Below, piece after piece: positions 18,753 through 37,146 of a stretch of 51,953 nucleotides of DNA. Each line of letters starts with the position of its first letter. Position 1 is the stretch's first letter. A model generated the notes under the pieces. It was not told the DNA's origin. It searched no databases and saw nothing but the letters and a program-made list of their open reading frames with translations. The stretch is from contig JBNJGV010000001.1 in assembly GCA_051819785.1 (NCBI GenBank), forward strand, positions 1 to 51,953. The letters run 5' to 3'. This stretch comes from Nanobdellota archaeon. Lineage in GTDB: Archaea > Nanobdellota > Nanobdellia > Woesearchaeales > DSVV01. The position numbers were made by a program, and so were the translations under genes.

Positions 18753-19394
18753 ATGTACTATGATGTTGTGTGCCCTAATGGGAATGAAAGAGAATTTATA
18801 GAAATGGCTAAAAGGCTAGGGTATGGTGGTATTTGTTTTCTTTATGAAGAAAAAATTCCTACAAATCAAATTTCAGATGAAAGGGTTGTTATTTTTTCAG
18901 CTGTTATTGCCAGAGATTCACGAAAAGCTGAAAGAAAAGCAGATTTATTTTTTGCAAAAGAAGTAACGAGCATTAGGAATTTAATAGAAAAAGGTTTTTC
19001 AGGTATCATTTTAGGCGCAGAAAACCAAAAAAGAAAGGACTTTATTCATCAAAGAAATTCGGGTGTTGATCATATTATATGTGAGTTTGCAAAAAAAAAA
19101 GGGACGGCTTTTGGCTTTTCTTTTAATGATTTAATAACTCCTCCAGGTTCACGCTTTGTGGGGAGAGTTATTCAAAATATAAGGCTGTTTCAAAAATATA
19201 ATTTAGATGCTGTGATATGTTCTTTGGCCCAAAAACCTTATGAAATGCGCAATCCAAGGGATTTAATTTCTTTGTATGGCTGGCTCGGCTTAATTTCACC
19301 AAAATTAGCTTTGAGCAATCTTGGTAAGCTTGTGAAAACGTATAAGAAAAAAAGCAAGGATAAAATCTCTGAAGGAATTGAGGTGGTTGAGTGA
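18753..19394 (+). CDS. rnp3: RNase P protein component 3 (Rpp30)
   Basis: GVDHIICEFAKKKGTAFGFSF ... RNPRDLISLYGWLG closely matches the conserved C-terminal blocks of archaeal Rpp30 (GIDH..., R-x-PRDLISL). I prefer the ATG at 18753 (MYYDVV) over the GTG at 18732. Confidence 0.8.
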   Translation: MYYDVVCPNGNEREFIEMAKRLGYGGICFLYEEKIPTNQISDERVVIFSAVIARDSRKAERKADLFFAKEVTSIRNLIEKGFSGIILGAENQKRKDFIHQRNSGVDHIICEFAKKKGTAFGFSFNDLITPPGSRFVGRVIQNIRLFQKYNLDAVICSLAQKPYEMRNPRDLISLYGWLGLISPKLALSNLGKLVKTYKKKSKDKISEGIEVVE

Positions 19395-20386
19395 TTATAT
19401 ATAATCTCTCATTGTTTTTTATTGGTCTTTTTTTAGGGATAATTACTTCATATACAGATTATTATTTAGGCAAGATTAGAAATAAACATTTAGCTGTTTC
19501 TTTTTTTTTAATGTTGATAATCATCTTTTTACAATATTTTATTTCTGCTCTTCCAAGAGAAGAGTATGCGTTTTTAGTAATTAATCTTTTATTAACAACT
19601 ATTGCTTCAGTGATGTTATGGATTTTTGGGTTTTGGACTCCAGGGGATGCAAAATTGTTTATTGTTTTTTCCTTTTTACTTTCTAGTATTTTTCCAACCT
19701 CTAAATTTTCCGGTTTAGCTTGCATAAGTTTTTCCTTTTGTGTCTTTATCCCTTTATTTTTAGGTCTTGTATTAATGTCTCTTTTTAAGTTAAGTTTTGA
19801 GGATTTTAAGAAAGGGCTTAAATCGTCTTTAGATAAGAAATTTTTATTTTCAATCCCCGGGGTTTTTATAATTCATTGGTTTTTTTCTTTAGGTGTTCTC
19901 AAGTCTCTTGTTATTATTTTGATTTTGGCGCTTGTTTACTTTTTTTTCAATCGTTTTATTACTTACGCGATACTCTGCCTTGTTTTTTTGAGGTTTTTAT
20001 TAGACAAAGAAATTTTTTCGTTTTTTTATTTGAATTATTTTTTAATATTGATTTTTTTAATTTTTATATTCAGGTTTTTTATATGTGAAATTTTCTTTGA
20101 TGTTTTTTGTAAAGAGACCAAAATTAAGTCACTCAAGAAAGGTATGGTTCCAGCAGAAAAAATTGTTAAAAAAGGTTCAGAATACATCAAAGTGCCTATG
20201 AAAGGGAAGCTTTCAAAATCTTCTGAGTTTTTTAAGCCCCGGCCAGAGGGCTTGAACAGAACAGAAATTCTTAAGTTAAAACGAAACAAATCCGGAATTT
20301 CTTGTATAAAAATTTACAGGACAATTCCTTTTGCACCCTTTATATTTTTAGGGTATTTGTTATTTGTTTTCATCTCAATTAGCTAA
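19391..20386 (+). CDS. Polytopic membrane protein, A24-family type IV prepilin/preflagellin peptidase-like
   Basis: It has multiple TM helices. The first candidate catalytic Asp lies in SYTDYYLGKIRNKHL (D-x5-I-x-N pattern). The second lies in FWTPGDAKLFIVF (G-x-GD-x-KL pattern). The GTG start overlaps the Rpp30 stop. Confidence 0.6.
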   Translation: MIIYNLSLFFIGLFLGIITSYTDYYLGKIRNKHLAVSFFLMLIIIFLQYFISALPREEYAFLVINLLLTTIASVMLWIFGFWTPGDAKLFIVFSFLLSSIFPTSKFSGLACISFSFCVFIPLFLGLVLMSLFKLSFEDFKKGLKSSLDKKFLFSIPGVFIIHWFFSLGVLKSLVIILILALVYFFFNRFITYAILCLVFLRFLLDKEIFSFFYLNYFLILIFLIFIFRFFICEIFFDVFCKETKIKSLKKGMVPAEKIVKKGSEYIKVPMKGKLSKSSEFFKPRPEGLNRTEILKLKRNKSGISCIKIYRTIPFAPFIFLGYLLFVFISIS

Positions 20387-22008: not shown

Positions 22009-22114
22009 AATAGAGGTTATTTACTTGTATATTAAAATATTTTTATCTTTTTTTAAATCAATAAAACGAGGTTATAATCAGTTCTCAAATAATGTGTGAG
22101 GGTTTCTGGCGAAC

Positions 22115-22151: not shown

Positions 22152-22475
22152 ATGGATTTACCCAAGGTTAAAAAAAAAGTTAATGGTTTTCTCTTGAACG
22201 AAGATGGGAAAATATCTAAGCAGGCTGCAGTTACAGTAGGTGGTGCCTTGGGTGTTTTTGTTGGTTCTTCTCTTATAGATTTTAGTTTTGCAGATTCTAT
22301 CAAACATTCACCAAAGGCGGATTGTGATCCTGTAGTAAAAGGTAATAGTGATAGTTCTGGGCATTGTTGGGCGCATAATAATAATATAATTAATGATTTT
22401 AAGCAAGATGCAGTAAAAAGTCAACACCAGCACCATTATAATCATACCAGCCATAGCAGCCATGGCTCCTATTAA
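22152..22475 (+). CDS. Small TM/signal-anchored protein with a C-terminal His-rich His-Xaa-Ser repeat tail (HxsA-like candidate precursor)
   Basis: The 107-aa product from the ATG at 22152 is MDLPKVKKKVNGFLL...AAVTVGGALGVFVGSSLIDF...KSQHQHHYNHTSHSSHGSY. The last 10 residues contain HTS-HSS-HGS. It overlaps the next gene's start by 14 nt. The track start at 22092 lies upstream of the TATA element, so I disfavour it. Confidence 0.5.
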   Translation: MDLPKVKKKVNGFLLNEDGKISKQAAVTVGGALGVFVGSSLIDFSFADSIKHSPKADCDPVVKGNSDSSGHCWAHNNNIINDFKQDAVKSQHQHHYNHTSHSSHGSY

Positions 22476-24234
22476 AAAGGAAAAAGTTAAATACAAAAAC
22501 CAAGGCGTAGCTTTGATGACAAAAAGATTCTTAGATTTGGGCTTGAAAAACAATAATAAAAATTCTTTTTTTGGAAAAGGGAAAAGTCGTAAATTTGATA
22601 ATATTGTTGATGAAATCGAAGGATTTAATTCATGGGATTCTGTTGTAATCTTTGGTAGTGAACCAACTGCAAGAAACGATTTTTTTAAAATTATTTCAAA
22701 ACTTAAGATAAAGGGTATTAACAAAATTTCCCTCATTACAAACGCCCGAGCATTTAATTATTCGAGTTTTGTAGAAAGATTAAGAGGTATAAAAGAATTG
22801 AAGGTTTTTGTTGAGCTCATGGCCCCAACTTTTGAAATGCACGACAAGATTACTGGCACTCCTGGAAGCTTTACACAAACGATAAAAGGCATTGAGAAGT
22901 TGATTGAAAAGGAATTCGATCTTTCATTAATCTTTCCAGTAGTTAAAGATAATTCAGATTTGATTTCAGGGATGGGTGAACTTTCATCTGTTTATGATAT
23001 TAAAAATATAGTTGTTTTTAACCCTCCTGAAAAACTCTTGAATAGATTAATTGATGCTGGCAAGAGGCATCCTCTCTTATTTAGTGTAGTTGGTTTAAAG
23101 CCCGAATTAGTTCGCTCGCCTTTGGATTTTTGTTTAGATCTTACTGATTTGGAAGAACTAGACCTAGAAAATGAGCCTTTTTTAAGAGTTTTAAGAGCAC
23201 TTGAACGCTTTCATAATAATAGCTTGATATATGTTTCACCTGATGAGGTTTATTATATGTTTCATAAATTTTCAAAGGGATATGAATTTCTTGATTTTGC
23301 TCATGATTTTGGATTTCCTGTGCCTGTTTTGATGCACCTGTTTAGGGAGCTTGAAAAGGAAAGAATTGTGACAATTGATGGGAAAAGGATAAAGCTTGAA
23401 ATTGAGCCGTTGGTTATAGAAAATTCAAAAAGTTTTAGAGAACAAAGACTTGAAGAGATTCCTTCTATATGTCAATTGAGAGTTGATGAGGTTGCACTTT
23501 TGAAAAGAGCAGACTTTGTCACAGAAAGGTCCTTAGGGAGCAGCAGGATTGCAATTCTTGGAGACGATGATTTTTTTTCACTGATTCTGGCAAGCAAAAA
23601 GGTTTTTCAGGAGATTTTCGTCTTTGAGCTTGATGAACGGATATGTGAGAAAATCAAAAGTATTGCTGAAAAAGAAAATTATAATATAAGGGTTGTCAAG
23701 CAGGACTTGAGAAAAGAATTCAGTCCCGAACTTATTGGCAAATTTGATGTTTTTTATACTGATTGTCCTTATTCTGTTAATGGCTTTACTCTTTTCTTTT
23801 CCAGGGGGTTGCAGCTATTGAAAAAAGAAAGGAAAAAAAGAGGATTTATGTCTTTTTCACCGAATCTTCCCATTGAGAGTGTAGAGATGGGTGTTCAAAA
23901 AGTGATAAATGATTCCGGAGTTTTTATTGAAAAGAAGCATCTGGGCGCAATTAATGAAATGCCTGATTATATTAGGCAAAAATATGATGATTTTAGTGCC
24001 TTGAAGAAAAATCTTGATGATTATGAAAGCATCCCTCTAGATGATAGTTGGTTTCTCTCAAGTCTGGGAAGAGAAGAGCAGTTGTTTTCTTTTTTGACTA
24101 CAAGTATGACACGCCCCCTGATTAGGGGTAAATTCGACGGCGAAATATATTATGGTGAGAACCCTCTTGCTTATTATACCGATAAAGAAAGCATAAAGAA
24201 AAGCAAATCAGAGAATGACATGTTCAAGTATTAA
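22462..24234 (+). CDS. Fusion: Cys-less (degenerate) radical-SAM-like HxsC-type domain + winged-helix-like linker + BpsA/DUF43 aminopropyltransferase-like domain
   Basis: The N-terminal half aligns with the radical SAM protein at 31124..31957 (VVIFGSEPTA / VVLSGGEPTL, ITNARAFNYS / LSNARAFSNK, HDKITGTPGSFTQTIKGIEKLIEK / HDAMTRTKKSFKQAVTGLKKLISK). Where the partner has KCNNNCLCC this protein has LKNNNKNSFF, and there is no Cys in the first roughly 215 aa. The C-terminal half has ILGDDDFFSLILA and GKFDVFYTDCPYSVNGFTLFFSRG, which match the DUF43/BpsA motifs (GDDDLTS, DPPYT...G...F.SRG). Confidence 0.6.
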   Translation: MAPIKKEKVKYKNQGVALMTKRFLDLGLKNNNKNSFFGKGKSRKFDNIVDEIEGFNSWDSVVIFGSEPTARNDFFKIISKLKIKGINKISLITNARAFNYSSFVERLRGIKELKVFVELMAPTFEMHDKITGTPGSFTQTIKGIEKLIEKEFDLSLIFPVVKDNSDLISGMGELSSVYDIKNIVVFNPPEKLLNRLIDAGKRHPLLFSVVGLKPELVRSPLDFCLDLTDLEELDLENEPFLRVLRALERFHNNSLIYVSPDEVYYMFHKFSKGYEFLDFAHDFGFPVPVLMHLFRELEKERIVTIDGKRIKLEIEPLVIENSKSFREQRLEEIPSICQLRVDEVALLKRADFVTERSLGSSRIAILGDDDFFSLILASKKVFQEIFVFELDERICEKIKSIAEKENYNIRVVKQDLRKEFSPELIGKFDVFYTDCPYSVNGFTLFFSRGLQLLKKERKKRGFMSFSPNLPIESVEMGVQKVINDSGVFIEKKHLGAINEMPDYIRQKYDDFSALKKNLDDYESIPLDDSWFLSSLGREEQLFSFLTTSMTRPLIRGKFDGEIYYGENPLAYYTDKESIKKSKSENDMFKY

Positions 24235-25304
24235 GGTATTATTTCACACCCATTATATTTTGTGTATTCAAAATCATCTATGGAGACTACGCCTTTTTCT
24301 ATCATGTCTTGGATTTTTGGCTTTATTTCAATCAATTTATCTATAAGGTTTTTTACGGTTTCACATACCAGGTTAAAACCCTCCTCGCCCCATGGCTTTG
24401 TAAGGTTTGCGACAAGGCATCTCCCACCGCATAATCCATAATAGCTACATGAAGTACAAGGGGTTTTTACAAACAAGGAGTTTTCTAATTCAAAGGGTGT
24501 TTTTTGGAAGATTGTTCCTAGGATGAAATCTTTATCTCTTAGATTTGTGCAAGGGGCAATTGATCCATCGGTAAGTATATTAAAAAAGTTTCTTCCTGCG
24601 CCACATCGAAGCAAAGTATTTTGTTCTTTTATAATATTCTGCATGACTCCAATAAATGGATAAATTTTTTTCACATTCCCTCTTTCAATTTTTTCTAACC
24701 ATTCATCTACAAGCTTTCTTATTCCTGGGTTATATTTTTCATAAACCCATTTTTCTGGATTTTTCCATGTCTCTTTATCAAAAAAGCACATGTTAAGTTG
24801 CCAGTGAATAGAATCAAAAATTCCTACCCTTAATAGGTGATTAACTTGTTTATGTATGTCTGTTTTTTCATCAATTGTCATCCTTGCTATTAATTCACCT
24901 TCGAAGCCGTTTTGTTTTATCTGTTTTGCATTATTTATGACGGATTTGTAAGTTCCTATTCCTCTGTAATAATCCGTTAATATCTCGTCACCATCTATGG
25001 AAATGAGTATGGTATGCAACCTATTGATATAATTTCTTTTTATTTCTTTTAGAAGAATGCCATTTGTCTGTAGCATAAATTTTTTCGCATGTACACAATC
25101 CATTATTTTTTTGATTTGATTCTTGTTAATGAGGGGTTCTCCTCCATAAAAAGTAATATTGCACTCAGCGTCTTTTTCAAGGAATGATTTAAGATCTTCT
25201 AGATTATATGACGGGAAAAAAGGAAATCTTCTCCTTACTTTGTTATCTGCACAATATTTGCATTTCAGATTACAATTCATGGTTGTAAATATATTATAAT
25301 TCAT
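24231..25304 (-). CDS. Radical SAM enzyme with C-terminal SPASM-type Cys-rich domain (peptide-maturase-like)
   Basis: The CX3CX2C motif is at TMNCNLKCKYC, followed by FYGGEPL and QTNG. The C-terminal Cys cluster is CGAGRN...APC...CTSCSYYGLCGGRC. Confidence 0.85.
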   Translation of the reverse strand: MNYNIFTTMNCNLKCKYCADNKVRRRFPFFPSYNLEDLKSFLEKDAECNITFYGGEPLINKNQIKKIMDCVHAKKFMLQTNGILLKEIKRNYINRLHTILISIDGDEILTDYYRGIGTYKSVINNAKQIKQNGFEGELIARMTIDEKTDIHKQVNHLLRVGIFDSIHWQLNMCFFDKETWKNPEKWVYEKYNPGIRKLVDEWLEKIERGNVKKIYPFIGVMQNIIKEQNTLLRCGAGRNFFNILTDGSIAPCTNLRDKDFILGTIFQKTPFELENSLFVKTPCTSCSYYGLCGGRCLVANLTKPWGEEGFNLVCETVKNLIDKLIEIKPKIQDMIEKGVVSIDDFEYTKYNGCEIIP

Positions 25305-25347
25305 TCCAATAAGAAAAATTTAAATTATATTAAAATTAGGCGGTTTT

Positions 25348-26946
25348 ATGAAAAAATCATTCCTGAAAGTTTGTGATAAAAGCAATAATAAAAACACCTT
25401 TTTTGAAAATAACAGCATCTTATCTTTTAAAGATATATGTGAAAGCCATAATGTTGTAATATGCGGGGGAGAACCCACCTTGTTTTCGGGGTTTTTCAAT
25501 CTGATATCTAAATTATCTGGTTGCAGGAGCATTTCTGTGATAACAAATGCAAGGGCTTTTTCTTATTCTTGGTTTTCCAGAAAAATTGATGGCAATTCTT
25601 TTAATGCCTATGTTGAAATTCTTTCTTACGATGAATCTAGGCATGATTCACTTACGGGAACTCCTGGAAGCTTTAAGCAAACTATTGAAGGCGCCAGAAA
25701 TCTCTTAGATTCATCAATACAGCTCAACTTTGTAATGCCTTTTATTGGACAGGATAAAAACGAGATTATATTAACTAAAAAATTAGCTCATGACCTGGGA
25801 GCAAAAAGATTTGTGATTAAGAATTGCACCAATCGTAATTATCCTCCTTTTTTCTTCAAGGAGCTTTCAGACGATTTCCCTTTTGATATTGAAGCAATAG
25901 ATTTTGAAGATTTTAATTTGCCTTCCAAAATGAAATTATGTTTTGAAATTCAGGATCTTAACCTGATAACTGGCTCTACAAGAATAAAATTATTGAGGAT
26001 AATTAGGGATTTGATTTATCCAGTCCCTTTTTCTAATCCTGATGATCTTTATAATTGTTTTCATAATATAAATGAATCCATATTGGATTCAAGCGAAAAG
26101 ACTGGTCTGGGAATAGAGTCCATTTATGATATAAATTCTCTCGTTAAAAGGGAAGGGCTGGTTCAATTGCCTCAACCACCCTGTATAGGCAAATTGCCGG
26201 GCCCGGAATCTGATAATAATCCCAATCTTTGCCAATTGAGCCTTAATAAAGAACATTTAATGCATAGATTAAATTATCTTTTGAAAATAATGGTTCCAGG
26301 AAGCGATCTGGTTTTATTGGGTGATGAAGATAATATTTCAATTGAACTTGCCAAGACAGGGCACTTCAAATCAATTACTGTTTTTGAGTATGATTCTGAT
26401 ACAGTCAAAGAATTAAAAAAAAAAGGGAAAGATTACCCAATATTTGTTTATGAGCATGATTTGAGGAAAAAAATTCCTTGTAAATTTAATGGTGTTTTTG
26501 CTTATATGTATTGCGCACCCCCTCATAATCCTGAAGGGTTTAGGCTTTTTGTTTCAAGAGGCGTTAAGCTGCTAAGGGGTGTGTTTGCAAAAAAGGCCTT
26601 TGTTTCTTTTGACATGTCTTTTTTAGATAAGGCCCATGAAATAAAAATCAATAAGATTATAAACGAGATGGGCTTGTTATCAAAAAATATTGGTCTTGAA
26701 TGTGTGCCTGAATTTCCTAAATATTTGCATAGAAGGTACTCTGACCCTAAATATTTACGTGGTGCAATAACTGATCCCTTTCATATCAATAAGAATGATT
26801 TATGGCATTTATCAAAGACCGGAAGAGCTGAATCATGCTTTGAACTAATTGTTCCGACCGATTGCAAGCCGGCAGTTGAATCTGATATACATGAAAATGT
26901 ATGCTATGATGAAGATATTTTTGAAAAACTTAGTTATTTGGAATGA
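25348..26946 (+). CDS. Second fusion paralog: degenerate radical-SAM-like domain + BpsA/DUF43-like domain
   Basis: CGGEPTL, ITNARAFSYS and HDSLTGTPGSFKQTIEGARNLL are retained. The cluster-binding site reads VCDKSNNKNTFF, with no CX3CX2C. The C-terminal half has VLLGDEDNISIELA and FAYMYCAPPHNPEGFRLFVSRG (DUF43-like with an altered DPPYT). Confidence 0.6.
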   Translation: MKKSFLKVCDKSNNKNTFFENNSILSFKDICESHNVVICGGEPTLFSGFFNLISKLSGCRSISVITNARAFSYSWFSRKIDGNSFNAYVEILSYDESRHDSLTGTPGSFKQTIEGARNLLDSSIQLNFVMPFIGQDKNEIILTKKLAHDLGAKRFVIKNCTNRNYPPFFFKELSDDFPFDIEAIDFEDFNLPSKMKLCFEIQDLNLITGSTRIKLLRIIRDLIYPVPFSNPDDLYNCFHNINESILDSSEKTGLGIESIYDINSLVKREGLVQLPQPPCIGKLPGPESDNNPNLCQLSLNKEHLMHRLNYLLKIMVPGSDLVLLGDEDNISIELAKTGHFKSITVFEYDSDTVKELKKKGKDYPIFVYEHDLRKKIPCKFNGVFAYMYCAPPHNPEGFRLFVSRGVKLLRGVFAKKAFVSFDMSFLDKAHEIKINKIINEMGLLSKNIGLECVPEFPKYLHRRYSDPKYLRGAITDPFHINKNDLWHLSKTGRAESCFELIVPTDCKPAVESDIHENVCYDEDIFEKLSYLE

Positions 26947-26983: not shown

Positions 26984-28009
26984 ATGAAAAATAGGTTTCT
27001 TGAAAAAGCAATGACCAAAAATGAAATACGTGTATTTAATCATGTTGTTTTCAACAATTTTCTTGATATCTCAGAATTGAGGGCTGAATTTAAGGAGTCT
27101 TTGGAAAATCTTGAAAAAAAAGGTATTTTGATAAAGAAAAATAATTTTTATTTTTTAGATAATCCTTCAAAGGTTTTTAAAAACCTAAATAAGATTCTTA
27201 AAAACAGTTCAATCGATAAGATAATAGATGAAAAGACAACCCACCAACATATTGAAGTGACAAAAATGGGCGATGAGTTTCTCTTAGAATTAAACAGTAA
27301 CCCGCAGGTTTGTTCTATTGATGAAGAAGAATATCACTTTTGTATTGGAACTGTTCCATGTTGCTTAGCAAAAAAATTAAATCGTGTTCTTATTCTTGGG
27401 GGTGGTGATCTTTTAGCTGCACGCAATGTCTTGCAATTTAATGAAGTTGATGAAGTTATTCTTGTTGAACTTGATAAAAGGATACTTGATATTTTTTGTA
27501 ATTTGAATTTTCTTGCTGATTGTAACAAGTTTGCTTTTTCTGATTCCAGATTGAAAATAATTAACGGGGATGCATTTAAATGGCTAAATGAGGACAGTGG
27601 GAATTTTGATGTAATTATTTATGACTGTGAAGAAACGTTTACTAATCAGGGTGAAGAATTCAACATGGTTTCATACCTTGGGTTTTATGAACTGATGTTT
27701 AATAAATTGTCAGAGGGTGGGATACTCACCTTTAATTGTTCCAATGATCCTGAAGAAGAAGAATATTTTGATTATATGTTTGAAAAAAATATCAAAAAAA
27801 ATCTCCCTACCCATATTAGTAATATTATTGAAAAGAAAAAAAAGATGCATCAAAAACAATGGCTGTTGCATAAATTTAATCACAAGAATGTTGTGCGCAT
27901 CGACCTGACTTCACCTGTTGTAGGGTTCCATTCAAATTGGTATTTTTCTAATGAAAAAATAACCCAAAGGCGTGGGAATCAATCCTTAGATAATTTTTTC
28001 ATAAGATAA
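26984..28009 (+). CDS. Spermidine-synthase-fold (aminopropyl/methyl-transferase class I) protein with an N-terminal wHTH-like domain
   Basis: RVLILGGGDLLAARNVLQFNEVDEVILVELDKRILD and NGDAFKWL...FDVIIYD follow the SpeE pattern (GGGDGG ... E-x-D ... GD-x-x-x-[FW]L ... [FY]DVII-x-D). Confidence 0.55.
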   Translation: MKNRFLEKAMTKNEIRVFNHVVFNNFLDISELRAEFKESLENLEKKGILIKKNNFYFLDNPSKVFKNLNKILKNSSIDKIIDEKTTHQHIEVTKMGDEFLLELNSNPQVCSIDEEEYHFCIGTVPCCLAKKLNRVLILGGGDLLAARNVLQFNEVDEVILVELDKRILDIFCNLNFLADCNKFAFSDSRLKIINGDAFKWLNEDSGNFDVIIYDCEETFTNQGEEFNMVSYLGFYELMFNKLSEGGILTFNCSNDPEEEEYFDYMFEKNIKKNLPTHISNIIEKKKKMHQKQWLLHKFNHKNVVRIDLTSPVVGFHSNWYFSNEKITQRRGNQSLDNFFIR

Positions 28010-29007
28010 AGGCAGTTTTCTTGCCCTGCATGCCTATCAAAGGTGCCCGTCTTTACTAATTTATCTGATACTGCAATTAACCTGCAACCTCCTTTGCATA
28101 TATTAAAATATTCACATGAAGCGCAGGGTTCTTTTATCTTGTCAAAATTAATCAAGTTGTTTTTTATATTGATGTTTTTACCATCGAAATTTCCTATGCT
28201 GAACTCATCTACTGCTGACATACAAGGACAAGGGAAAATTTTCATATCCTCCAGACGTATTGCAATATGATTTTTGCCTGCATTGCAATAATGGTTCTTA
28301 AGAGGAGGTGCGAAAAACCAGCATTTTCTTTTATTTTCAGGGTTGTCTGGACCCCAGATTGAATCCAACTCAATAGTAAATGAATATTTTCCATAGTTTT
28401 CTTTTATTTTTTTATATATCTCATATCTTTCTTTTCCGGTTAAAATAGAATCTTCTCCAAGATTTTTTTTGGCATTTCCTGAATAGCATAATGGGATGAG
28501 CTCAACAAAATTAATAGGTAGGTTTTTCTCAGCGAAATCAAGCATATCTTTAATGTGGTTTTTGTTTTTTTTGTTTACTACGAAGTTTACACCGATAGTT
28601 TGTATATGGTCTCTGTGGCTTTTTTTTATGTAATTGACAATCTTGTTGAAATCATTTTTGCCACTTGAATATTTATGCAGTTTTTGATTATGTCCATGAA
28701 GGCTTATGACAATATTTGTCTTAAGTGAGTTCATGTATCTCAAGTCTTTCTCATCCGGAGAAAATTCTGGATTGATGTTAAGCCATTCGGGGTTGCTTCT
28801 TTCAAATTGCTTTGTTTTTCTAAATATTTCTATGGATTCATGATTTATATTAAAATCAAACAGATGAACAAAGTATCCTTGTTTTTTTAGAATCTTGACT
28901 ATTTGGGAGATCTTTTTGTATCCAACCGGAGAAGACCCTCCATAACAGCAAATATTGCAGTTACGTTGGCAATTCTTGTGAACAAGAGTAATTGTTTTAA
29001 TTTCCAT
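27979..29007 (-). CDS. Radical SAM enzyme with SPASM-like C-terminal Cys cluster
   Basis: The CX3CX2C motif is at KNCQRNCNICC. The C-terminal Cys cluster is CNAGKNH...FPCPC...EPCASCEYFNICKGGCRL. Its 3' end overlaps the convergent gene by 31 nt. Confidence 0.8.
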   Translation of the reverse strand: MEIKTITLVHKNCQRNCNICCYGGSSPVGYKKISQIVKILKKQGYFVHLFDFNINHESIEIFRKTKQFERSNPEWLNINPEFSPDEKDLRYMNSLKTNIVISLHGHNQKLHKYSSGKNDFNKIVNYIKKSHRDHIQTIGVNFVVNKKNKNHIKDMLDFAEKNLPINFVELIPLCYSGNAKKNLGEDSILTGKERYEIYKKIKENYGKYSFTIELDSIWGPDNPENKRKCWFFAPPLKNHYCNAGKNHIAIRLEDMKIFPCPCMSAVDEFSIGNFDGKNINIKNNLINFDKIKEPCASCEYFNICKGGCRLIAVSDKLVKTGTFDRHAGQENCLYLMKKLSKD

Positions 29008-29052: not shown

Positions 29053-30180
29053 ATGGAAAAAAAACTTTTTGATTTTCAGGCATTGCTTGATAATTTCTCT
29101 GTGCTTGATAAAAAGTGGGACATTTCTTTAAAGAGTGTAGATGACCTTTCAAAGGTTAAAGTTACAAAAAGAAATGATATACATAGGTTCTCAATTAATT
29201 CTTGCCCTGAAAAACCAGTTTATGTTATGAATACCTCGGGAACTCTTGGGACGCCCACGTTATTTTTCATTTCAAAGGGTGCCTATGAAACACATATAAA
29301 AAGGGTTGAAACCATGTTCAAAATATCCGGATACAATCCGCATGAAGTTGTAGTTAACATGACAGAAGACCCAATTGCAAATAGTGCTTTTGTTCGTGGC
29401 GGGCATACATTTATTCATACTGGAATGCTGATTGAACAAAACGCAGAAATAATTGCCCAGAAGATTTTACAGACGAGACCCACTTATATGTATACATATC
29501 TTTCATTGGCATATGATTTATTCAAGATGATAAATAAGAAAGGTGTTGTGAAAAATATCGTTGGTGTTGGTTCTCTTGTTACTAAAGACTTTAAAAATTC
29601 TATTAAGGAGCTTACTGGTGCAGATTTTAAGATGATGTATGGGACACAGGAGTTTGGTGCTCTTGGCATCCAGGAAAATGAAGATGACGAATATTATTCT
29701 CTGATTGATGATGGTCTTTATACTGAGGTCATGAATAAATCTGGTGAAATCTCCGAAAACGGTAGTGGGGCTCTTCTTATTACAGATTACAATAATTTTT
29801 CATCGCCTTTTATAAGATATTTTGTAGGTGATGAAGTTGAGCTGATGAGAAAAGATGGCAAAACTTATCTTAAAGTTTTAGGCAGATGTGATAATTTTAT
29901 AAAACTCCAAGGGGATGTCGATTCAAAGGAAGGCATAATTTCAATTATGCAAGGTATTCTAAAACATGATAATTTTTTGATAGAGGTTACAAATGATACT
30001 GGATTAAATGACTATATGACCATTTTAGTACCTTCAAAGGATTTAGAAAAAAGAAAACTTATTTCAGAAAAAATGATGGAGTTTTACCAAGTACCTTGTG
30101 TTGTTAAAGCTTTAAATTCTCCTGTACCAAAGACACAATCTGGTAAAAGAATTAATATCAATGATAAACGATTTAGCTAG
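29053..30180 (+). CDS. Adenylate-forming ligase, PaaK/CapK/F390-synthetase-like
   Basis: MNTSGTLGTPTLFF matches the AMP-binding motif (SSGTTGKPT). LKVLGRCDNFIKLQGDV matches the GR-x-DD-x-I-x-x-x-G block. I prefer the ATG at 29053, preceded by AGGAGG at 29044-29049. The track start at 28903 would overlap the divergent radical SAM gene. Confidence 0.6.
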   Translation: MEKKLFDFQALLDNFSVLDKKWDISLKSVDDLSKVKVTKRNDIHRFSINSCPEKPVYVMNTSGTLGTPTLFFISKGAYETHIKRVETMFKISGYNPHEVVVNMTEDPIANSAFVRGGHTFIHTGMLIEQNAEIIAQKILQTRPTYMYTYLSLAYDLFKMINKKGVVKNIVGVGSLVTKDFKNSIKELTGADFKMMYGTQEFGALGIQENEDDEYYSLIDDGLYTEVMNKSGEISENGSGALLITDYNNFSSPFIRYFVGDEVELMRKDGKTYLKVLGRCDNFIKLQGDVDSKEGIISIMQGILKHDNFLIEVTNDTGLNDYMTILVPSKDLEKRKLISEKMMEFYQVPCVVKALNSPVPKTQSGKRININDKRFS

Positions 30181-30193
30181 TTTTTTCTATATT

Positions 30194-31084
30194 TCAAATT
30201 GTTTCATTACATTTTTCTTTGATTATATTTTTATATCTTAAATAATCTTGTTTTGTTATTGTTTCGCATATTTCAGAATCAGGGGAGGGTAATGACCCAC
30301 ACATACTGGCATTACCTGTTTTGAAAGCATTAAAAAAAACAGAAATCTCTATACATGTGTTATAATTATTAAAATCATCATTGCTTTTGAAGTAATCACA
30401 ATATGTTGTGTTTTTTTCTGATATTGCTTTGCAATATGTTTTAGGAACTGCTTCCATGGAATCGCAGCTTGTTTTTTTTTTAAATAATAATTTACAAAGG
30501 CTCTTTTGTTCTTCTTTTCCAATTTTATTACACAATTTCTCGTCTTTATCTTTAAGCGCTTTTGAAGAGAAATAGACTGCTTTACAATAATCTTTTTCTT
30601 CTTTATTATCAATTTTATTGCAAAAATCAGGGTTGTTTTCAAATAGGGCAATAATAATAGGATCTTTATTCTCTTCATAACACTTCTGGATTTCCTCTTC
30701 AACAAACCTTTTGTTCCTTTCTCTGGTAAGTTCGTCCATTTCTTCATTTGTTAATTTTGTTTCTTTCTCTTCATTTATTTCTTCTTTCTCTTCAGGTGTA
30801 TCTTCTGTTGTGTCTGTGTTATTAGGTTCTTCTGAGTTAATTAGTAATAAAAACATTCCGACAATTAAAAGAACAATCATAATGACTGCAAAAATATATA
30901 CTTTGCCTGTATTATGTATTTTGTATTTTTCTTGCTGAAGGGGTTGATTTTTCTCGGCCTCTTTAAAGGCAAAATTAATTTTTTCTTTGTTATATCCTGC
31001 CTCAACTAGAATTTTTGTAATTTTTTCATCAGAGAAGCCCCTTTGCTTTTCTCTTAAGATATAGTTGGCTAATTGTTCGACCAT
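30194..31084 (-). CDS. Single-pass membrane protein with acidic linker and Cys-rich extracytoplasmic domain (hypothetical)
   Basis: The N-terminal soluble segment is ANYILREKQRGFSDEKITKILVEAGYNKEKI, and the TM helix is VYIFAVIMIVLLIVGMFLLLI. About 16 Cys follow in recurring C-[NK]-K-[IA] / K-x-x-C spacing. Confidence 0.5.
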   Translation of the reverse strand: MVEQLANYILREKQRGFSDEKITKILVEAGYNKEKINFAFKEAEKNQPLQQEKYKIHNTGKVYIFAVIMIVLLIVGMFLLLINSEEPNNTDTTEDTPEEKEEINEEKETKLTNEEMDELTRERNKRFVEEEIQKCYEENKDPIIIALFENNPDFCNKIDNKEEKDYCKAVYFSSKALKDKDEKLCNKIGKEEQKSLCKLLFKKKTSCDSMEAVPKTYCKAISEKNTTYCDYFKSNDDFNNYNTCIEISVFFNAFKTGNASMCGSLPSPDSEICETITKQDYLRYKNIIKEKCNETI

Positions 31085-31123: not shown

Positions 31124-31957
31124 TTACTTTACGGTGGTTGTAAAAGGTACGGGTTTTTCTCCTGAATGCTCAATGTAACCTTTCCAGAAACCGCAGCATT
31201 TTGATTTTTTTTCACACCTCCTGCATTCATTTGGGAAATATATGTCTTCTTCAGGCGCAGTTTTTCCTTTGGTATGCTTATGAAGTTCTTTTGGAAGAAA
31301 ACAAAGCGGCAGGTGTAAAATTATAGGCTTTATATTAGTTTTTTTTATAACCTTTGTTGCATTTTTTATTGGTTCTATTGTTTTTTTATAGCTAATAAAC
31401 AAATTGTTAATGTTACTTAATGCTTCACCATCAATTTTCATTTGTATAAATACAATCCTTTTAGCACCCTGAAACTCTTTTTTTATAAATTGAGAAATCT
31501 TTTCAAGTTTACTATAGTTAAGTTTTGTTATTATTATTCGTACTTCTGCGTTATATCCTTTAGATATTAGTTTTTTTAATCCAGTAACGGCTTGTTTGAA
31601 GCTTTTTTTGGTTCTAGTCATAGCATCATGTTCTGGCTCATTATCTGAATAAAGAGCTGTTGCTATTATGAATCTTTCTTTATTAATATTACAAGATTCA
31701 AATTTTTCAAAGAAATTTTTGTTTGAGAAAGCCCTTGCATTGCTGAGTATTAACCCAGATGAACCTGAATTATTAACGTCTTTTATTGCTTTGAAGAAAT
31801 TTTTAGAAAGCGTAGGTTCTCCACCCGAAAGAACAACCATCTTTTCTTTATCTTTTATTTTTGGGTAACTATCTCTTACTTCTTTTTCTCTTAACTTTTT
31901 CTCGGCAACACAGCATAGGCAGTTGTTATTGCATTTTGTTGTAAGTGTAATATGCAT
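31124..31957 (-). CDS. Radical SAM enzyme, HxsC-like (second maturase of a His-Xaa-Ser-type pair)
   Basis: The CX3CX2C motif is at TTKCNNNCLCC, with GGEPTL and NARAF blocks. The C-terminal Cys cluster is CRRCEKKSKCCGFW. It lies immediately downstream of the HxsB-like gene. Confidence 0.5.
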   Translation of the reverse strand: MHITLTTKCNNNCLCCVAEKKLREKEVRDSYPKIKDKEKMVVLSGGEPTLSKNFFKAIKDVNNSGSSGLILSNARAFSNKNFFEKFESCNINKERFIIATALYSDNEPEHDAMTRTKKSFKQAVTGLKKLISKGYNAEVRIIITKLNYSKLEKISQFIKKEFQGAKRIVFIQMKIDGEALSNINNLFISYKKTIEPIKNATKVIKKTNIKPIILHLPLCFLPKELHKHTKGKTAPEEDIYFPNECRRCEKKSKCCGFWKGYIEHSGEKPVPFTTTVK

Positions 31958-31988: not shown

Positions 31989-33392
31989 TTAATCATAAAA
32001 TTTTATCCATTTTTCAAACACTTCTTTAGCAGACTCATCAAAAAGATATTTTTCAAAAATATAATCAAATTGTGCTTTAAATATCTGGCAATATGTTGTT
32101 TGTGGAACGTTTGCAACAATGCTGCCCTGTTCTGCGTAGTTAACTACTGGACAAAGCCCACAATATGGTTTATAGGGGCAATACTCACATATATCTGTGT
32201 CGTTAATTGATGAGGATATCAAAGAAGTACTTTCTTCGCAAGAAATAACTTCTTTAAATTTTTGATTCTTGACTGACCCAATTTTAAAAATCTCTTCTTC
32301 GAACATTCTCCCTTCATCACAGCAAAAAATGTCTCCTTTATGATTATATGCCATCTGACCGATGACTGCGCCACAGGGGCTTCGCATATCAAGAAACCCT
32401 GGGTCAACTTTCTGTAAAATCTTTTGAAGAATAATTGTTGTTCCTCTTTCTCTGAAAAAGATACCTTCTTTATTCTTTTTTATTATGTAATCAAGGCTTT
32501 TTTTCCAAAACTTAATAAACTCCTCAGGTGAATATTCTATCTTATCCTTGTTTTTATTTGCGTAACCCAACTTGTTAAAATATCTTAAATGAATTCCTTT
32601 TAATCCAAGGCCAAGATATTCATCTATGATTTCTTTAGGATATTTAATTGATTCTTTTGTAATTGTAACAAGAGCGTTCATTTGTGCATTTAGTTCTTTT
32701 TTTTTGTATTCTTGCTGGATTTTTTTAATCCAGCCCGTTACCAACTCATGGCTGGATTTTTTATATGGTCTGTTAAAGTCATGGAGTTTTTTTGGCCCAT
32801 CTAAGGAGGTACATATATCAATCTGATTTTTTATGCAGTATTCAAGTATTTCATCAGTCATTTTTGTAAGATTGGTAACCATAACAAAACGAAGATTCTT
32901 GTTATATTTTTTATTCACATTCTTGGCATAGTTTGTAATTTTTTTTATTATTTCGAAATTTAATAAAGGCTCTCCCCCCTGGAATTCTATTGTTACTTGT
33001 TTAGAAGGGCTCTGGAAAATATAATCAACTGTTTGTTCAGCTGTTTTCTCGTCCATATCGTAGCCTTTAGCATCTTTTTGAGTAGAAGAAGTCTGACAAT
33101 ATAGGCATTTTTGATTGCATCTTAATGTTATCGCTACAATGTGAAGAGAAGTGCCCTGCCTGAGAAAATTATATCTTGTATTATAATCGTTTTTTATTTC
33201 TTCTTTGTTGTTTTTTGTTAGAATTATCCCCTTTGATTCGAGTTTTTTGAAAAGGTTTTCTTCTTTAATGTTATCATACTGGAGATGTTCAAACTCTTCT
33301 TTGTTCAAAGCAATCCAATTGCCATGACTTGTTGTTACAAGATATTTGTCATTTATCTTTTTGAATCTGAAAGGATTTATAAGGTATTTCAT
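31989..33392 (-). CDS. Radical SAM/SPASM enzyme, HxsB-like
   Basis: 467 aa. The N-terminal PFRFKKINDKYLVTTSHGNWIALNKEEFEHL resembles the HxsB leader-binding-type N-terminus. The CX3CX2C motif is at LRCNQKCLYC, with FQGGEPLL. The SPASM-like tail is CGA...CCDEGR...CEYCPYKPYCGLCPV. Confidence 0.6.
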   Translation of the reverse strand: MKYLINPFRFKKINDKYLVTTSHGNWIALNKEEFEHLQYDNIKEENLFKKLESKGIILTKNNKEEIKNDYNTRYNFLRQGTSLHIVAITLRCNQKCLYCQTSSTQKDAKGYDMDEKTAEQTVDYIFQSPSKQVTIEFQGGEPLLNFEIIKKITNYAKNVNKKYNKNLRFVMVTNLTKMTDEILEYCIKNQIDICTSLDGPKKLHDFNRPYKKSSHELVTGWIKKIQQEYKKKELNAQMNALVTITKESIKYPKEIIDEYLGLGLKGIHLRYFNKLGYANKNKDKIEYSPEEFIKFWKKSLDYIIKKNKEGIFFRERGTTIILQKILQKVDPGFLDMRSPCGAVIGQMAYNHKGDIFCCDEGRMFEEEIFKIGSVKNQKFKEVISCEESTSLISSSINDTDICEYCPYKPYCGLCPVVNYAEQGSIVANVPQTTYCQIFKAQFDYIFEKYLFDESAKEVFEKWIKFYD

Positions 33393-33598
33393 TTTAGTAT
33401 TTTGGTCATTCCAAGCGTATAATTTTTGAACTCTTTAATTGTTTCTTCGGGGTTTTCTCTTTTGGTTTTCAGTTTAACTTTATGGGTTTCTTTATCTTCT
33501 TTTAAGTCCCCTTCGACAAAATCTTTAAAATCATTAATGGCTGCAAGGATTGCGTTTTTAGAGTATAATTCCTTTTCGAACCTAACTGTTTTCTCCAT
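33389..33598 (-). CDS. HxsD-like small protein, short paralog (69 aa)
   Basis: VRFEKELYSKNAILAAINDF...IKEFKNYTLGM aligns with the neighbouring 139-aa protein (FLDKELYPKDVLHTTAYVF...SKEFKNQLINYAHHM). Its stop overlaps the HxsB-like start (ATGA). Confidence 0.4.
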   Translation of the reverse strand: MEKTVRFEKELYSKNAILAAINDFKDFVEGDLKEDKETHKVKLKTKRENPEETIKEFKNYTLGMTKILK

Positions 33599-34001: not shown

Positions 34002-34071
34002 ACTTGCTTTGACTGGGGGCAAGATATTTAAATGTTACTAATCTTTCTAAAATGCAAATCCAGTAAAAAGC

Positions 34072-37123: not shown

Positions 37124-37146
37124 TCAAGCTCTTTTTACTGATTAAA

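What the first reader, a model, noticed from the sequence alone, without database searches (positions are those of the whole stretch)
22462..26946. Two paralogous fusions of a radical-SAM-like domain that has lost its CX3CX2C cluster site to a BpsA/DUF43 aminopropyltransferase-like module
Both N-terminal domains align block by block with the intact HxsC-like enzyme at 31124-31957 (GGEPTL, NARAF, HD...T...SF.Q...G...L). At the exact cluster site KCNNNCLCC, they read LKNNNKNSFF and DKSNNKNTFF. The 22462 protein has no Cys at all in its first roughly 215 residues.

The C-terminal halves carry DUF43 hallmarks (GDDD/GDED, FSRG) with diverged DPPYT-type motifs (DCPYS, APPHN). A catalytically dead radical-SAM fold could act as a peptide-recognition or scaffold domain that delivers a substrate to an alkyl or aminopropyl transferase. 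I am not aware of this architecture being described.
Basis: partly seen in the sequence, partly recalled or inferred. Interest (0 to 1): 0.8.

Follow-up and report, generated by a model that had tools for sequence, protein, structure and literature searches.

The report
Dead radical-SAM domain fused to aminopropyltransferase
Two neighbouring genes in a tiny DPANN archaeon each join a radical-SAM enzyme fold that has lost its iron-sulfur site to a complete polyamine-synthase-type aminopropyltransferase, inside a cluster that matures a histidine-rich peptide. This points to an undescribed way of recruiting an alkylating enzyme to a peptide, not yet tested by experiment.

Summary
ORFs 22462/22516-24234 (Fus1) and 25348-26946 (Fus2) are full-length paralogues (28% identity, E 4e-66).

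**Domains**
- The N-terminal ~185 residues are an HxsC-like radical-SAM barrel. The evidence is HMM hits, 31-33% identity to the window's own HxsC-like gene, and an AF2 model whose top 50 PDB matches are all radical SAM enzymes.
- The CX3CX2C site reads N/N/F in Fus1 and S/N/F in Fus2. Fus1 has no Cys before residue 206.
- The rest is a whole BpsA: N-terminal domain plus PF01861 catalytic domain.

**New findings**
- An exhaustive search of 1.84 billion representatives finds about 14 such fusions. None has the cluster motif.
- In three distinct sister loci an S-adenosylmethionine decarboxylase gene overlaps the fusion's start.
- The fusion travels with HxsB, HxsD, an HxsD-like protein, an AF0577-family rSAM/SPASM enzyme and a precursor ending in H-x-S repeats and SY.
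- Fus2 is the odd member (GDED; Asp225 equivalent is Ala) and is probably a non-catalytic partner.

**Best reading (inferred)**
A dcSAM-dependent aminopropyltransferase is docked onto an archaeal HXS-type maturation pathway by a decayed copy of the pathway's own maturase. I found no paper describing this architecture.

The parts
22152..22475 (+). Precursor protein of the HxsA3 type. The ORF opens at 22092; the probable start is 22152. It has an N-terminal KLPK..KKK..FL..EDGKISK region, a hydrophobic stretch, and a C-terminal His-rich tail ...KSQHQHHYNHTSHSSHGSY.
   Evidence: NCBIfam NF038309 HxsA3 scores 26-27 bits, below its cut-off of 65. Homologous precursors in L001, L003 and L014 share the pattern H.H...H..H.SH.SY-COOH.
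22516..24234 (+). Fus1, 572 aa from Met 22516 (ORF opens at 22462). It consists of a cluster-less HxsC-like barrel (aa 1-185, nt 22516-23070), a low-confidence linker (aa 186-220), a BpsA N-terminal-like domain (aa 221-300, nt 23176-23415) and a BpsA_C catalytic domain plus a family-specific C-terminal third (aa ~320-572, nt 23473-24234).
   Evidence: GDDD and the Asp of TDCPYS (Tk-BpsA Asp225) are kept.
24231..25304 (-). AF0577-family (TIGR04084) radical SAM/SPASM enzyme with an intact CX3CX2C.
   Evidence: 357.5 bits against a cut-off of 225. It lies next to the fusion in the window, L001, L003, L014 and L016.
25348..26946 (+). Fus2, 532 aa, a divergent paralogue with the same architecture. 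The barrel is aa 1-~170 (nt 25348-25857). The Pfam BpsA_C match is aa 318-464 (nt 26299-26739). It has GDED instead of GDDD and CAPPHN instead of TDxPY.
   Evidence: The N-barrel is its best-conserved region against Fus1, at 37% versus 34% for the catalytic core.
26984..28009 (+). Spermidine-synthase-like aminopropyltransferase with an N-terminal extension.
   Evidence: PF01564 scores 92.2 bits. NCBIfam polyamine aminopropyltransferase models match, but below their cut-offs.
27979..29007 (-). Second radical SAM/SPASM enzyme. It is not orthologous to the one in L003.
29053..30180 (+). Adenylate-forming ligase-like protein (PaaK/FlxY-like). The matches are weak, and it is not found in the sister loci.
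30194..31084 (-). Single-pass membrane protein with Cys-rich repeats. It occupies the position downstream of HxsC where HxsA sits in bacterial HXS systems.
   Evidence: Homologues lie next to the fusion or HxsC in L002, L003 and L014.
31124..31957 (-). Intact HxsC-like radical SAM enzyme (CNNNCLCC plus a C-terminal CX2CX5C). It is the closest intact relative of the dead domains found in the window.
   Evidence: TIGR03977 scores 178.8 bits, below its cut-off of 267.9.
31989..33392 (-). HxsB radical SAM/SPASM maturase.
   Evidence: TIGR03978 scores 490.4 bits against a cut-off of 370.
33389..33598 (-). HxsD-like small protein (HxsD_rel).
   Evidence: NF038315 scores 67.3 bits against a cut-off of 41.
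33582..34022 (-). HxsD.
   Evidence: TIGR03976 scores 53.6 bits against a cut-off of 50.
19391..20386 (+). Polytopic membrane protein, a possible A24-type leader peptidase. Membership of the system is tentative.
   Evidence: Orthologues are in L001 and L003. The L003 copy lies directly upstream of HxsD and has an Arc_PepC hit of 26.5 bits. The window copy itself has no Pfam hit.

Best explanation
Fus1 and Fus2 belong to a small family found in DPANN-archaeal genomes and in metagenomes. In it a complete BpsA-type aminopropyltransferase carries at its N-terminus a decayed copy of HxsC, the radical SAM maturase of the His-Xaa-Ser (HXS) system.

**Shown.**
- The decayed domain keeps the (beta/alpha)6 barrel and the GGE, TNxR and HD..T..GSF.QT motifs.
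- It has no [4Fe-4S]-binding CX3CX2C, so it cannot cleave SAM reductively.
- In the two window proteins the C-terminal Cys motif of HxsC is gone as well.

**Inferred.**
- The domain retains HxsC's non-catalytic role, docking the HxS-repeat tail of the precursor (22152-22475) and/or an HxsD-type partner.
- It thereby brings the BpsA module to the precursor while the real radical SAM enzymes (HxsB, HxsC-like, AF0577-type) process it.
- The BpsA module transfers an aminopropyl group from decarboxylated SAM to a nucleophile on the precursor or on a precursor-bound amine. A His imidazole or an amine in the conserved H.H...H..H.SH.SY tail is the obvious candidate.
- Fus1 keeps the dcSAM-orienting GDDD and the Asp225 equivalent and is the likely catalyst.
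- Fus2 has GDED and Ala at the Asp225 position, yet keeps its barrel better than its catalytic core. It is most likely a non-catalytic or altered-specificity partner subunit.
For: **Domain identities.**
- PF01861 scores 95.5 and 52.3 bits, and PF04055 matches only partially, starting after the cluster loop.
- The best N-domain models are HxsC and HxsC4.
- A family profile hits Tk-BpsA with both its N-domain (chain 19-96) and its catalytic domain, 106 bits in all. It hits SkfB with the N-domain at 2.3e-10.
- The full AF2 model (pLDDT 81.5) matches BpsA structures over about 360 columns at E about 1e-14.
- The N-domain-only model (pLDDT 88.4, pTM 0.87) has only radical SAM enzymes in its top 50 PDB hits, with TMq up to 0.71.

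**Loss of the cluster site.** None of the 17 aligned members that carry N-domain sequence has a CX3CX2C. Fus1 has no Cys in residues 1-205.

**Constraint on the dead domain.** It is 24-54% identical across the family. In Fus1 versus Fus2 it is better conserved than the catalytic core.

**dcSAM as donor.**
- GDDD is invariant except in Fus2.
- Its role in holding the dcSAM aminopropyl group is described in PMC12979288.
- An AdoMetDC gene (PF02675, 100.9 bits) overlaps the fusion's start in L003/L013, L011/L012 and L014.
- Other PF01861 proteins are fused to AdoMetDC.

**Peptide pathway.**
- The fusion is syntenic with an HxS-repeat precursor, HxsB, HxsD, HxsD_rel, an AF0577 rSAM/SPASM, a B12-rSAM and a Cys-rich membrane protein. 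This holds across loci whose fusion proteins are 33-59% identical to Fus1.
- In E. coli, HxsC binds HxsD, and in a docking model HxsC engages the HxS motif (PMC13128918).

**A different acceptor from BpsA.** The last ~70 positions of the PF01861 profile, the acceptor side, are not matched. They are replaced by a family-specific conserved region, W.L..LGR.E.LFHFLTT.
Against: - No experiment or interaction prediction links the dead domain to the precursor or to HxsD.
- The window itself has no AdoMetDC gene in 52 kb.
- The acceptor atom is a guess.
- Fus1 has Asn where most of the family has the Glu that aligns (within one position) with Tk-BpsA Glu259.
- Eleven relatives keep HxsC's C-terminal CX2CX5C motif, so in those proteins the domain may still hold an Fe-S cluster and do more than dock.
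- The family is small and comes mostly from metagenomes, so synteny rests on about six independent loci.
Confidence: 0.5

Rival explanations
1. The fusions are ordinary branched or long-chain polyamine synthases acting on free polyamines. The N-terminal domain is regulatory or vestigial. The polyamine is either a housekeeping product or is joined to the peptide later by another enzyme, for example the adenylate-forming ligase at 29053-30180 acting on the C-terminal carboxylate.
For: - The whole BpsA architecture, GDDD and the Asp225 equivalent are kept.
- NCBI names the proteins bis-aminopropyl spermidine synthase family.
- A SpeE-like gene sits beside them.
- AdoMetDC plus an aminopropyltransferase is the classical polyamine pair.
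Against: - Synteny is tight and conserved with the HxS precursor and four or five peptide-type radical SAM enzymes, across fusions 33-59% identical to Fus1.
- The N-domain derives specifically from the system's own maturase, HxsC.
- The acceptor-side third of PF01861 is replaced by a family-specific region.
- The ligase is absent from the sister loci.
Confidence: 0.2
2. The cluster-less barrel is a ligand-binding or allosteric domain rather than a peptide or HxsD dock. It would bind SAM, dcSAM, MTA or 5'-deoxyadenosine through the retained GGE and TNxR motifs. It could thereby couple transferase activity to the radical SAM reactions or channel the donor.
For: - SAM-contacting motifs of the radical SAM fold (GGEPT, TNARAF, HD..T..GSF) are the best-conserved parts of the domain.
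- The cluster loop is replaced by a conserved polar motif (GG.xNN / K.NNKN), not by random sequence.
Against: - In radical SAM enzymes SAM is anchored by the unique iron, which is absent here (established knowledge of the superfamily).
- Several family members (P0003, P0035, P0036, P0038, P0040) have degraded these motifs yet keep the domain.
Confidence: 0.15
3. The C-domain transfers methyl or 3-amino-3-carboxypropyl from SAM rather than aminopropyl from dcSAM. This would be comparable to MccD in microcin C or to His-directed ACP transfer.
For: - The fold is a class I SAM-dependent transferase, and many methyltransferases appear among the structural matches.
- The window has no AdoMetDC.
- Fus2 has altered GDED and APP motifs.
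Against: - The acidic GDDD motif that pairs with the dcSAM amine is invariant in all members but Fus2 (PMC12979288).
- AdoMetDC is translationally coupled to the fusion in three distinct loci.
Confidence: 0.1
4. The N-terminal domains are decaying remnants of a gene fusion and have no function of their own.
For: - The catalytic motif is lost in every member.
- Some members (P0003, P0040) have very degraded barrels, and the fragment records P0027 and P0039 lack most or all of the domain.
Against: - The domain is retained in about 14 lineages that are no more than 50% identical to one another.
- It is predicted to fold confidently (pLDDT 88.4).
- It is the best-conserved part between the two window paralogues.
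Confidence: 0.05

Closest known systems
BpsA, N4-bis(aminopropyl)spermidine synthase (Thermococcus kodakarensis TK1691; PDB 5XNC/5XNF/5XNH/6J26; Pfam PF01861)
   Same: Both BpsA domains are present: the N-terminal helical domain and the Rossmann catalytic domain. LGDDDF, DxD, DLRK, TD(P/S/C)PY and SRG motifs are shared. The predicted fold matches over about 360 columns. There is a genomic link to AdoMetDC.
   Different: An extra ~200-residue radical-SAM-like domain sits in front. The last third of the catalytic domain (the acceptor side, including the Glu259, Tyr290 and Tyr316 region) is not matched by the Pfam profile and is replaced by a family-specific conserved region. The genes sit in a peptide-maturation cluster, not a polyamine pathway. 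Fus2 lacks the second Asp of GDDD and Asp225.
HxsC, radical SAM maturase of the His-Xaa-Ser (HXS) system (TIGR03977; HxsC4 NF038332). The E. coli system was shown to be antiphage (PMC13128918).
   Same: HxsC is the best-scoring family for the N-domains. They are 31-33% identical to the window's own HxsC-like protein. The barrel motifs are the same. Eleven family members also keep HxsC's C-terminal CX2CX5C motif.
   Different: No CX3CX2C is present, so no reductive SAM cleavage is possible. Scores (44-50 bits) are far below the family cut-off of 267.9. The window's two copies have also lost the C-terminal Cys motif. The domain is fused to a transferase, not free-standing.
Bacterial HXS system (HxsD-HxsB-HxsC-HxsA), reported as 99.7% Pseudomonadota (PMC13128918)
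   Same: HxsB and HxsD score above their curated cut-offs. The order D-B-C is kept on the minus strand. The precursor has His-x-Ser-type repeats.
   Different: The host is archaeal (Nanobdellota/Woesearchaeota). An extra HxsD-like protein, two or three extra radical SAM/SPASM or B12-rSAM enzymes, the fusion, and AdoMetDC in sister loci are present. The precursor is a short HxsA3-like protein with no peptidoglycan-binding domain. The slot after HxsC holds a Cys-rich membrane protein. The function is unknown.
Microcin C aminopropylation (MccD/MccE in E. coli; a dcSAM-dependent tandem aminopropylation in Bacillus subtilis)
   Same: It is a ribosomally made peptide product decorated with aminopropyl groups derived from SAM or dcSAM. 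For the B. subtilis work only the title was seen, in a reference list.
   Different: MccD is reported as a SAM-dependent methyltransferase-type enzyme (PDB 5FCD) and was not compared with PF01861 here. It acts on a phosphoramidate oxygen of a peptidyl-nucleotide. No radical-SAM-like docking domain and no HxS-type precursor are reported for that system in the papers read.
TIGR04347 'pseudo-SAM/SPASM' proteins (NCBIfam)
   Same: By its name this is a curated family of radical-SAM homologues regarded as 'pseudo'. That is a precedent for cluster-less radical SAM folds being retained (name seen).
   Different: It is a weak hit only (21.7 bits for Fus1). It has a SPASM domain and is not fused to a transferase. 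I did not examine its sequences.

Membership tests
Radical SAM superfamily (functional enzyme) | CX3CX2C (or variant) three-Cys motif binding the SAM-cleaving [4Fe-4S] cluster | tested here: not met
   The motif positions read N/N/F in Fus1 and S/N/F in Fus2. Fus1 has no Cys in residues 1-205. None of the 17 aligned family members with N-domain sequence has the motif.
Radical SAM superfamily (fold/homology) | Partial (beta/alpha)6 TIM barrel with GGE-type and downstream SAM motifs; significant HMM match | tested here: met
   PF04055 scores 42.9 bits for Fus1, above the 29.5 cut-off, and 19.5 bits for Fus2, below it. The AF2 N-domain model has pLDDT 88.4, and its top 50 PDB matches are all radical SAM enzymes with TMq 0.48-0.71.
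HxsC (TIGR03977) | Score above the curated equivalog cut-off (267.9 bits) | tested here: not met
   The scores are 50.2 and 44.2 bits. HxsC and HxsC4 are nevertheless the top-scoring models.
HxsC (TIGR03977) | C-terminal Cys-rich (CX2C...) second cluster region, needed for function in E. coli HxsC (C342/C345; PMC13128918) | tested here: not met
   It is absent from Fus1, Fus2 and P0002, and present as CX2CX5CxG in 11 relatives.
BpsA / PF01861 | Pfam BpsA_C match above the gathering score | tested here: met
   95.5 and 52.3 bits against 27.
BpsA / PF01861 | GDDD motif (Tk-BpsA G157-D160) that positions the dcSAM aminopropyl group | tested here: met
   Fus1 has LGDDDF. Fus2 has LGDEDN, so the feature is met only in Fus1 (residue roles from PMC12979288).
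BpsA / PF01861 | Acceptor-activating residues Asp225, Glu259, Tyr290, Tyr316 | tested here: inconclusive
   Asp225 is kept in Fus1 (TDCPYS) and is Ala in Fus2 (CAPPHN). Glu259 aligns within one position of a family-conserved Glu that is Asn in Fus1 and Ser/Phe in Fus2. The Tyr290/Tyr316 region is not alignable.
BpsA / PF01861 | BpsA N-terminal domain preceding the catalytic domain | tested here: met
   Family profile positions 266-343 match 5xnc chain residues 19-96 at 22.5 bits. Foldseek aligns about 360 columns covering the whole BpsA chain.
BpsA / PF01861 | Aminopropylation of spermidine to branched polyamines (EC 2.5.1.128), ping-pong via C-terminal acidic carriers | not testable with these tools
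   This needs an enzyme assay. An acidic stretch (..EEIYYED..) is conserved near the C-terminus, but equivalence to Glu339-Glu345 was not established.
HXS system (HxsA-D) | HxsB and HxsD present above curated cut-offs and adjacent to an HxsC | tested here: met
   HxsB scores 490.4 against 370. HxsD scores 53.6 against 50. HxsD_rel scores 67.3 against 41. The HxsC-like protein scores 178.8, below its 267.9 cut-off.
HXS system (HxsA-D) | HxsA effector with His-Xaa-Ser repeats | tested here: inconclusive
   The precursor tail HQHHYNHTSHSSHGSY contains HxS/HxH units. The HxsA3 model scores 26-27 bits, below its cut-off of 65. The gene lies 9 kb from HxsC in the window but directly after HxsB in L003 and L014.
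HXS system (HxsA-D) | Antiphage defence by blocking DNA entry | not testable with these tools
   PADLOC-DB gives no specific hits, only generic pVip rSAM matches. No relatives were found in IMG/VR.

The most novel reading that the evidence does not exclude
DPANN archaea make a surface or secreted His-rich protein whose HxS-repeat tail is first cross-linked by radical SAM enzymes and then decorated with one or more aminopropyl (polyamine-like) groups. The decorating enzyme is a BpsA-type transferase that finds its substrate through a dead copy of the pathway's own radical SAM maturase. This would be the first pseudo-radical-SAM domain acting as a substrate-recruitment module, and the first aminopropylated protein side chain made by a PF01861 enzyme. 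Fus1 and Fus2 would form a catalytic/non-catalytic heteromer.
Probability: 0.35. Interest if true: 0.85.

Novelty: new variant of a known kind. Interest (0 to 1): 0.66.

Why it matters
**Pseudoenzyme evolution.** If the reading is right, a pathway's own maturase was duplicated, stripped of its cofactor site, and reused as the targeting domain of an unrelated enzyme. RiPP biology usually solves this targeting problem with RRE domains.

**New chemistry.** It would add aminopropylation from dcSAM by a BpsA-family enzyme to the known chemistry of ribosomal peptides and proteins. The only precedent I found is microcin C.

**Reach of the HXS system.** It extends the recently characterised HXS system, reported as 99.7% Pseudomonadota, to a much more elaborate archaeal version. 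The hosts are organisms with tiny genomes, where a roughly 15-kb investment implies an important function. That function may lie in cell-surface or host-interaction biology.

**Annotation.** NCBI currently names these genes 'bis-aminopropyl spermidine synthase family protein'. That would lead to wrong inferences about DPANN polyamine metabolism.

Tried and rejected
- **Alternative Fe-S site.** I listed all Cys positions. Fus1 has none in the barrel. Fus2's N-domain Cys are not at the motif positions and are absent from Fus1. Rejected for the window proteins.
- **AdoMetDC in the window.** A six-frame motif scan and Pfam/NCBIfam scans of most large ORFs found none.
- **Profile search of the 5.8-billion-protein word-indexed database.** It returned only the two closest proteins. 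The exhaustive representative search was needed.
- **Metagenome scan with the 19-sequence alignment.** It failed for lack of a conserved stretch and worked with a 13-sequence subset.
- **Bacillaceae PF01861 hits (L005/L006) as possible microcin-C-type enzymes.** They are BpsA-AdoMetDC fusions beside a two-component system and an ABC transporter, with no peptide context. Not pursued.
- **Orthology of the window's second rSAM/SPASM (27979-29007) with the rSAM/SPASM upstream of AdoMetDC in L003.** They are not orthologous.
- **PADLOC and IMG/VR.** No specific defence-family hit and no viral relatives.
- **Literature searches.** I searched for PF01861/DUF43 fusions, aminopropyltransferase + RiPP, and pseudo- or degenerate radical SAM domains. 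There were no relevant papers. The library lacks most subscription journals, so absence is weak evidence.
- **Mapping Tk-BpsA Tyr290/Tyr316 onto the fusions.** The region is not alignable.

Full report
**1. What is in the sequence**

The window is low-GC DNA (about 33%). It carries archaeal replication genes: Orc1/Cdc6, PolD small and large subunits, MCM and TBP. Its proteins are identical to products of a Nanobdellota (DPANN) MAG.

The two ORFs of the finding are real. They are paralogous along their entire length, at 28% identity and E 4e-66. The Met at 22516 is the likelier start of the first. It aligns with Met1 of the second ORF and of the closest homologue. It also gives the 572-aa product that NCBI annotates.

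**2. The N-terminal domain is a radical SAM fold without its cluster site**

*Sequence evidence.*
- Pfam Radical_SAM matches both proteins, but only from profile position 21 in Fus1 and 46 in Fus2, that is, after the cluster loop. The scores are 42.9 and 19.5 bits.
- The best NCBIfam models are HxsC and HxsC4.
- Against the intact HxsC-like gene of the same window (31124-31957, minus strand) the two domains are 31% and 33% identical.
- They share GGEPT, TNARAF and HD..T..GSF.QT.

*The cluster site.* At KCNNNCLCC they read LKNNNKNSFF and DKSNNKNTFF. Fus1 has four cysteines in total, the first at residue 206. Fus2's N-domain cysteines are not at the motif positions and are absent from Fus1 at the aligned positions.

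*Predicted fold.* An AlphaFold2 model of the isolated domain is confident (pLDDT 88.4, pTM 0.87). It shows six beta-alpha units. Its 50 best PDB matches are all radical SAM enzymes, including SuiB, DesII, BlsE, SkfB, GDGT-MAS, anSME, MoaA, viperin, PqqE and NifB. TM-scores normalised to the query are mostly 0.6-0.71.

**3. The rest is a whole BpsA**

- PF01861 matches at 95.5 and 52.3 bits.
- phmmer finds Tk-BpsA (5XNC) and the P. furiosus homologue 2QM3.
- A profile of the family also matches the BpsA N-terminal domain (chain residues 19-96). The fused partner is thus the complete enzyme, not just DUF43.
- The full-length AF2 model (pLDDT 81.5) aligns with BpsA structures over about 360 columns at E about 1e-14.

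I fixed the numbering from the printed alignments: chain index minus 20 equals native numbering, checked on GDDD, Glu259 and Tyr290. Residue roles come from the 2026 BpsA review. On that basis:
- Fus1 keeps GDDD and the Asp225 equivalent (TDCPYS).
- Fus2 has GDED, and Ala at the Asp225 position (CAPPHN).
- The Glu259 position aligns within one residue of a Glu conserved in most of the family. It is Asn in Fus1 and Ser/Phe in Fus2.
- The last ~70 positions of the Pfam profile, on the acceptor side, are unmatched. A family-specific conserved segment replaces them.

**4. It is a family, and none of its members has the cluster motif**

An exhaustive HMM search of 1.84 billion cluster representatives found the two window proteins and about 14 further full-length or nearly full-length fusions (356-508 bits). 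Scores then drop to fragments and single-domain BpsA_C or radical SAM proteins.

In the alignment:
- None of the 17 members with N-domain sequence has CX3CX2C. The site typically reads (L/I)GG.xNN.
- Eleven keep a PxC...CX2CX5CxG motif that HxsC also has. Mutating the corresponding CxxC of E. coli HxsC impairs function.
- Fus1, Fus2, P0002 and three others have lost that motif too.
- All members except Fus2 have GDDD and (T)DxPY.
- The barrel is 24-54% identical across the family. Between Fus1 and Fus2 it is the best-conserved region, at 37% versus 34% for the catalytic core. That argues for constraint on the dead domain.

**5. Context**

*The window, 19.4 to 34.0 kb.*
- An A24-like membrane protein and a U32 pair
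- The His-rich precursor
- Fus1
- An AF0577-family rSAM/SPASM (357.5 bits)
- Fus2
- A SpeE-like protein
- Another rSAM/SPASM
- An adenylating-ligase-like protein
- A Cys-rich membrane protein
- The HxsC-like gene
- HxsB (490.4 bits)
- HxsD_rel (67.3 bits)
- HxsD (53.6 bits)

*Related loci.* These came from a GTDB genome scan, a metagenome scan and contig look-ups, and they show the same association.
- L001: fusion 59% identical to Fus1, with precursor - fusion - AF0577.
- L003, a Woesearchaeota MAG, identical to L013: HxsC4-like, Cys-rich membrane protein, A24-like, HxsD, HxsD_rel, HxsB, precursor, rSAM/SPASM, AdoMetDC, fusion, AF0577.
- L014: HxsB, precursor, rSAM/SPASM, AdoMetDC, fusion, AF0577, B12-rSAM, Cys-rich membrane protein.
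- L011/L012: rSAM/SPASM, AdoMetDC, fusion.
- L002, L015 and L016: partial versions.

The AdoMetDC gene (PF02675, 100.9 bits) overlaps the fusion's start codon region in three distinct loci. The precursors share the C-terminus H.H...H..H.SH.SY.

Ordinary PF01861 homologues in Asgard archaea and Bacillaceae lack this context.

**6. Mechanism**

*Shown.*
- The domain identities
- The loss of the radical SAM cluster site
- Retention of the dcSAM-orienting motif in Fus1
- Degeneration of catalytic residues in Fus2
- Conserved linkage to AdoMetDC and to an HXS-type maturation cluster

*From the literature.*
- BpsA uses dcSAM, and GDDD holds the aminopropyl group (PMC12979288).
- In E. coli, HxsC binds HxsD, and a docking model places the HxS motif of HxsA at the HxsC active site (PMC13128918).

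*Inferred.*
- The dead HxsC domain keeps a docking role and recruits the BpsA module to the precursor.
- The precursor is then aminopropylated.
- Fus2 serves as a non-catalytic partner.

The acceptor atom is unknown. The window's lack of AdoMetDC is unexplained.

**7. Comparison and novelty**

- The proteins are homologues of HxsC but fail its defining features, so they are not members.
- Fus1 meets the sequence criteria of the BpsA family. Its acceptor half diverges, and its activity is untested.
- The cluster is an archaeal, much expanded relative of the bacterial HXS system, which was reported as 99.7% Pseudomonadota.
- Aminopropylation of a ribosomal peptide product is known from microcin C. 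There it is done by unrelated machinery on a phosphoramidate.
- I found no paper describing a PF01861/radical-SAM fusion or a cluster-less radical SAM domain used for targeting. The library is incomplete.

I rate it a new variant of known kinds. It has a well-supported anatomy and a plausible but untested mechanism.

Noticed in passing
window 19391-20386 (+); L001 5962-6954; L003 4812-5978: A polytopic membrane protein is conserved beside the HXS genes. The L003 copy has a weak Arc_PepC (archaeal peptidase A24 C-terminal) hit. The precursor N-termini (M.KLPKLKKK..FL..EDGKISK.. followed by a hydrophobic stretch) resemble class III (pilin-type) signal peptides. This may be the leader peptidase, and the product may be surface-displayed.
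   Followed up: partly
window 20379-21107 and 21109-22008 (-): A U32 pair lies directly upstream of the precursor gene. One member has a Peptidase_U32 hit with a weak UbiU/UbiV/TrhP-like match, and a 242-aa partner has no hit. The pair is conserved in the close relative L001 but is not seen in L003 or L014.
   Followed up: partly
window 26984-28009 (+) and the whole window: The window encodes three aminopropyltransferase-like proteins (Fus1, Fus2 and a SpeE-like protein with an N-terminal extension). It has no S-adenosylmethionine decarboxylase in 52 kb, whereas sister loci place AdoMetDC right at the fusion's start.
   Followed up: partly
window 34118-37123, 37087-40329, 40392-46604 (+); L014 8681-10588: Three very large, Cys-rich, apparently secreted proteins (1001, 1080 and 2070 aa) have no Pfam family above cut-off (only a sub-threshold Ig-like hit in the largest). 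They follow the cluster. A homologue of the first also lies near the cluster in L014.
   Followed up: partly
window 30194-31084 (-); L002 135-1016; L003 2359-3045; L014 6935-7696: A single-pass membrane protein with repeated Cys-rich units recurs beside the fusion or HxsC. In the window it occupies the slot after HxsC where bacterial systems have HxsA. It could be a second substrate or an anchor.
   Followed up: partly
L001 9640-9720: The precursor gene of the closest relative appears frameshifted after an A-run, relative to the window's MDLPKVKKKVNGFLLNEDGKISK. This is either an assembly error or a real disruption.
   Followed up: no
L005 and L006 9914-11419: Lysinibacillus and Cytobacillus encode a single 501-aa polypeptide that joins BpsA (N- plus C-domain), a Cys4 zinc-ribbon-like segment and AdoMetDC. 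It sits next to a two-component system and an ABC transporter.
   Followed up: partly
window 9622-10998 (+) and 11044-12852 (+): A 458-aa protein has only a weak sulfotransferase-domain hit. A 602-aa protein has a C-terminal Nudix/IPP-isomerase-like domain and an unassigned 400-residue N-terminus.
   Followed up: no
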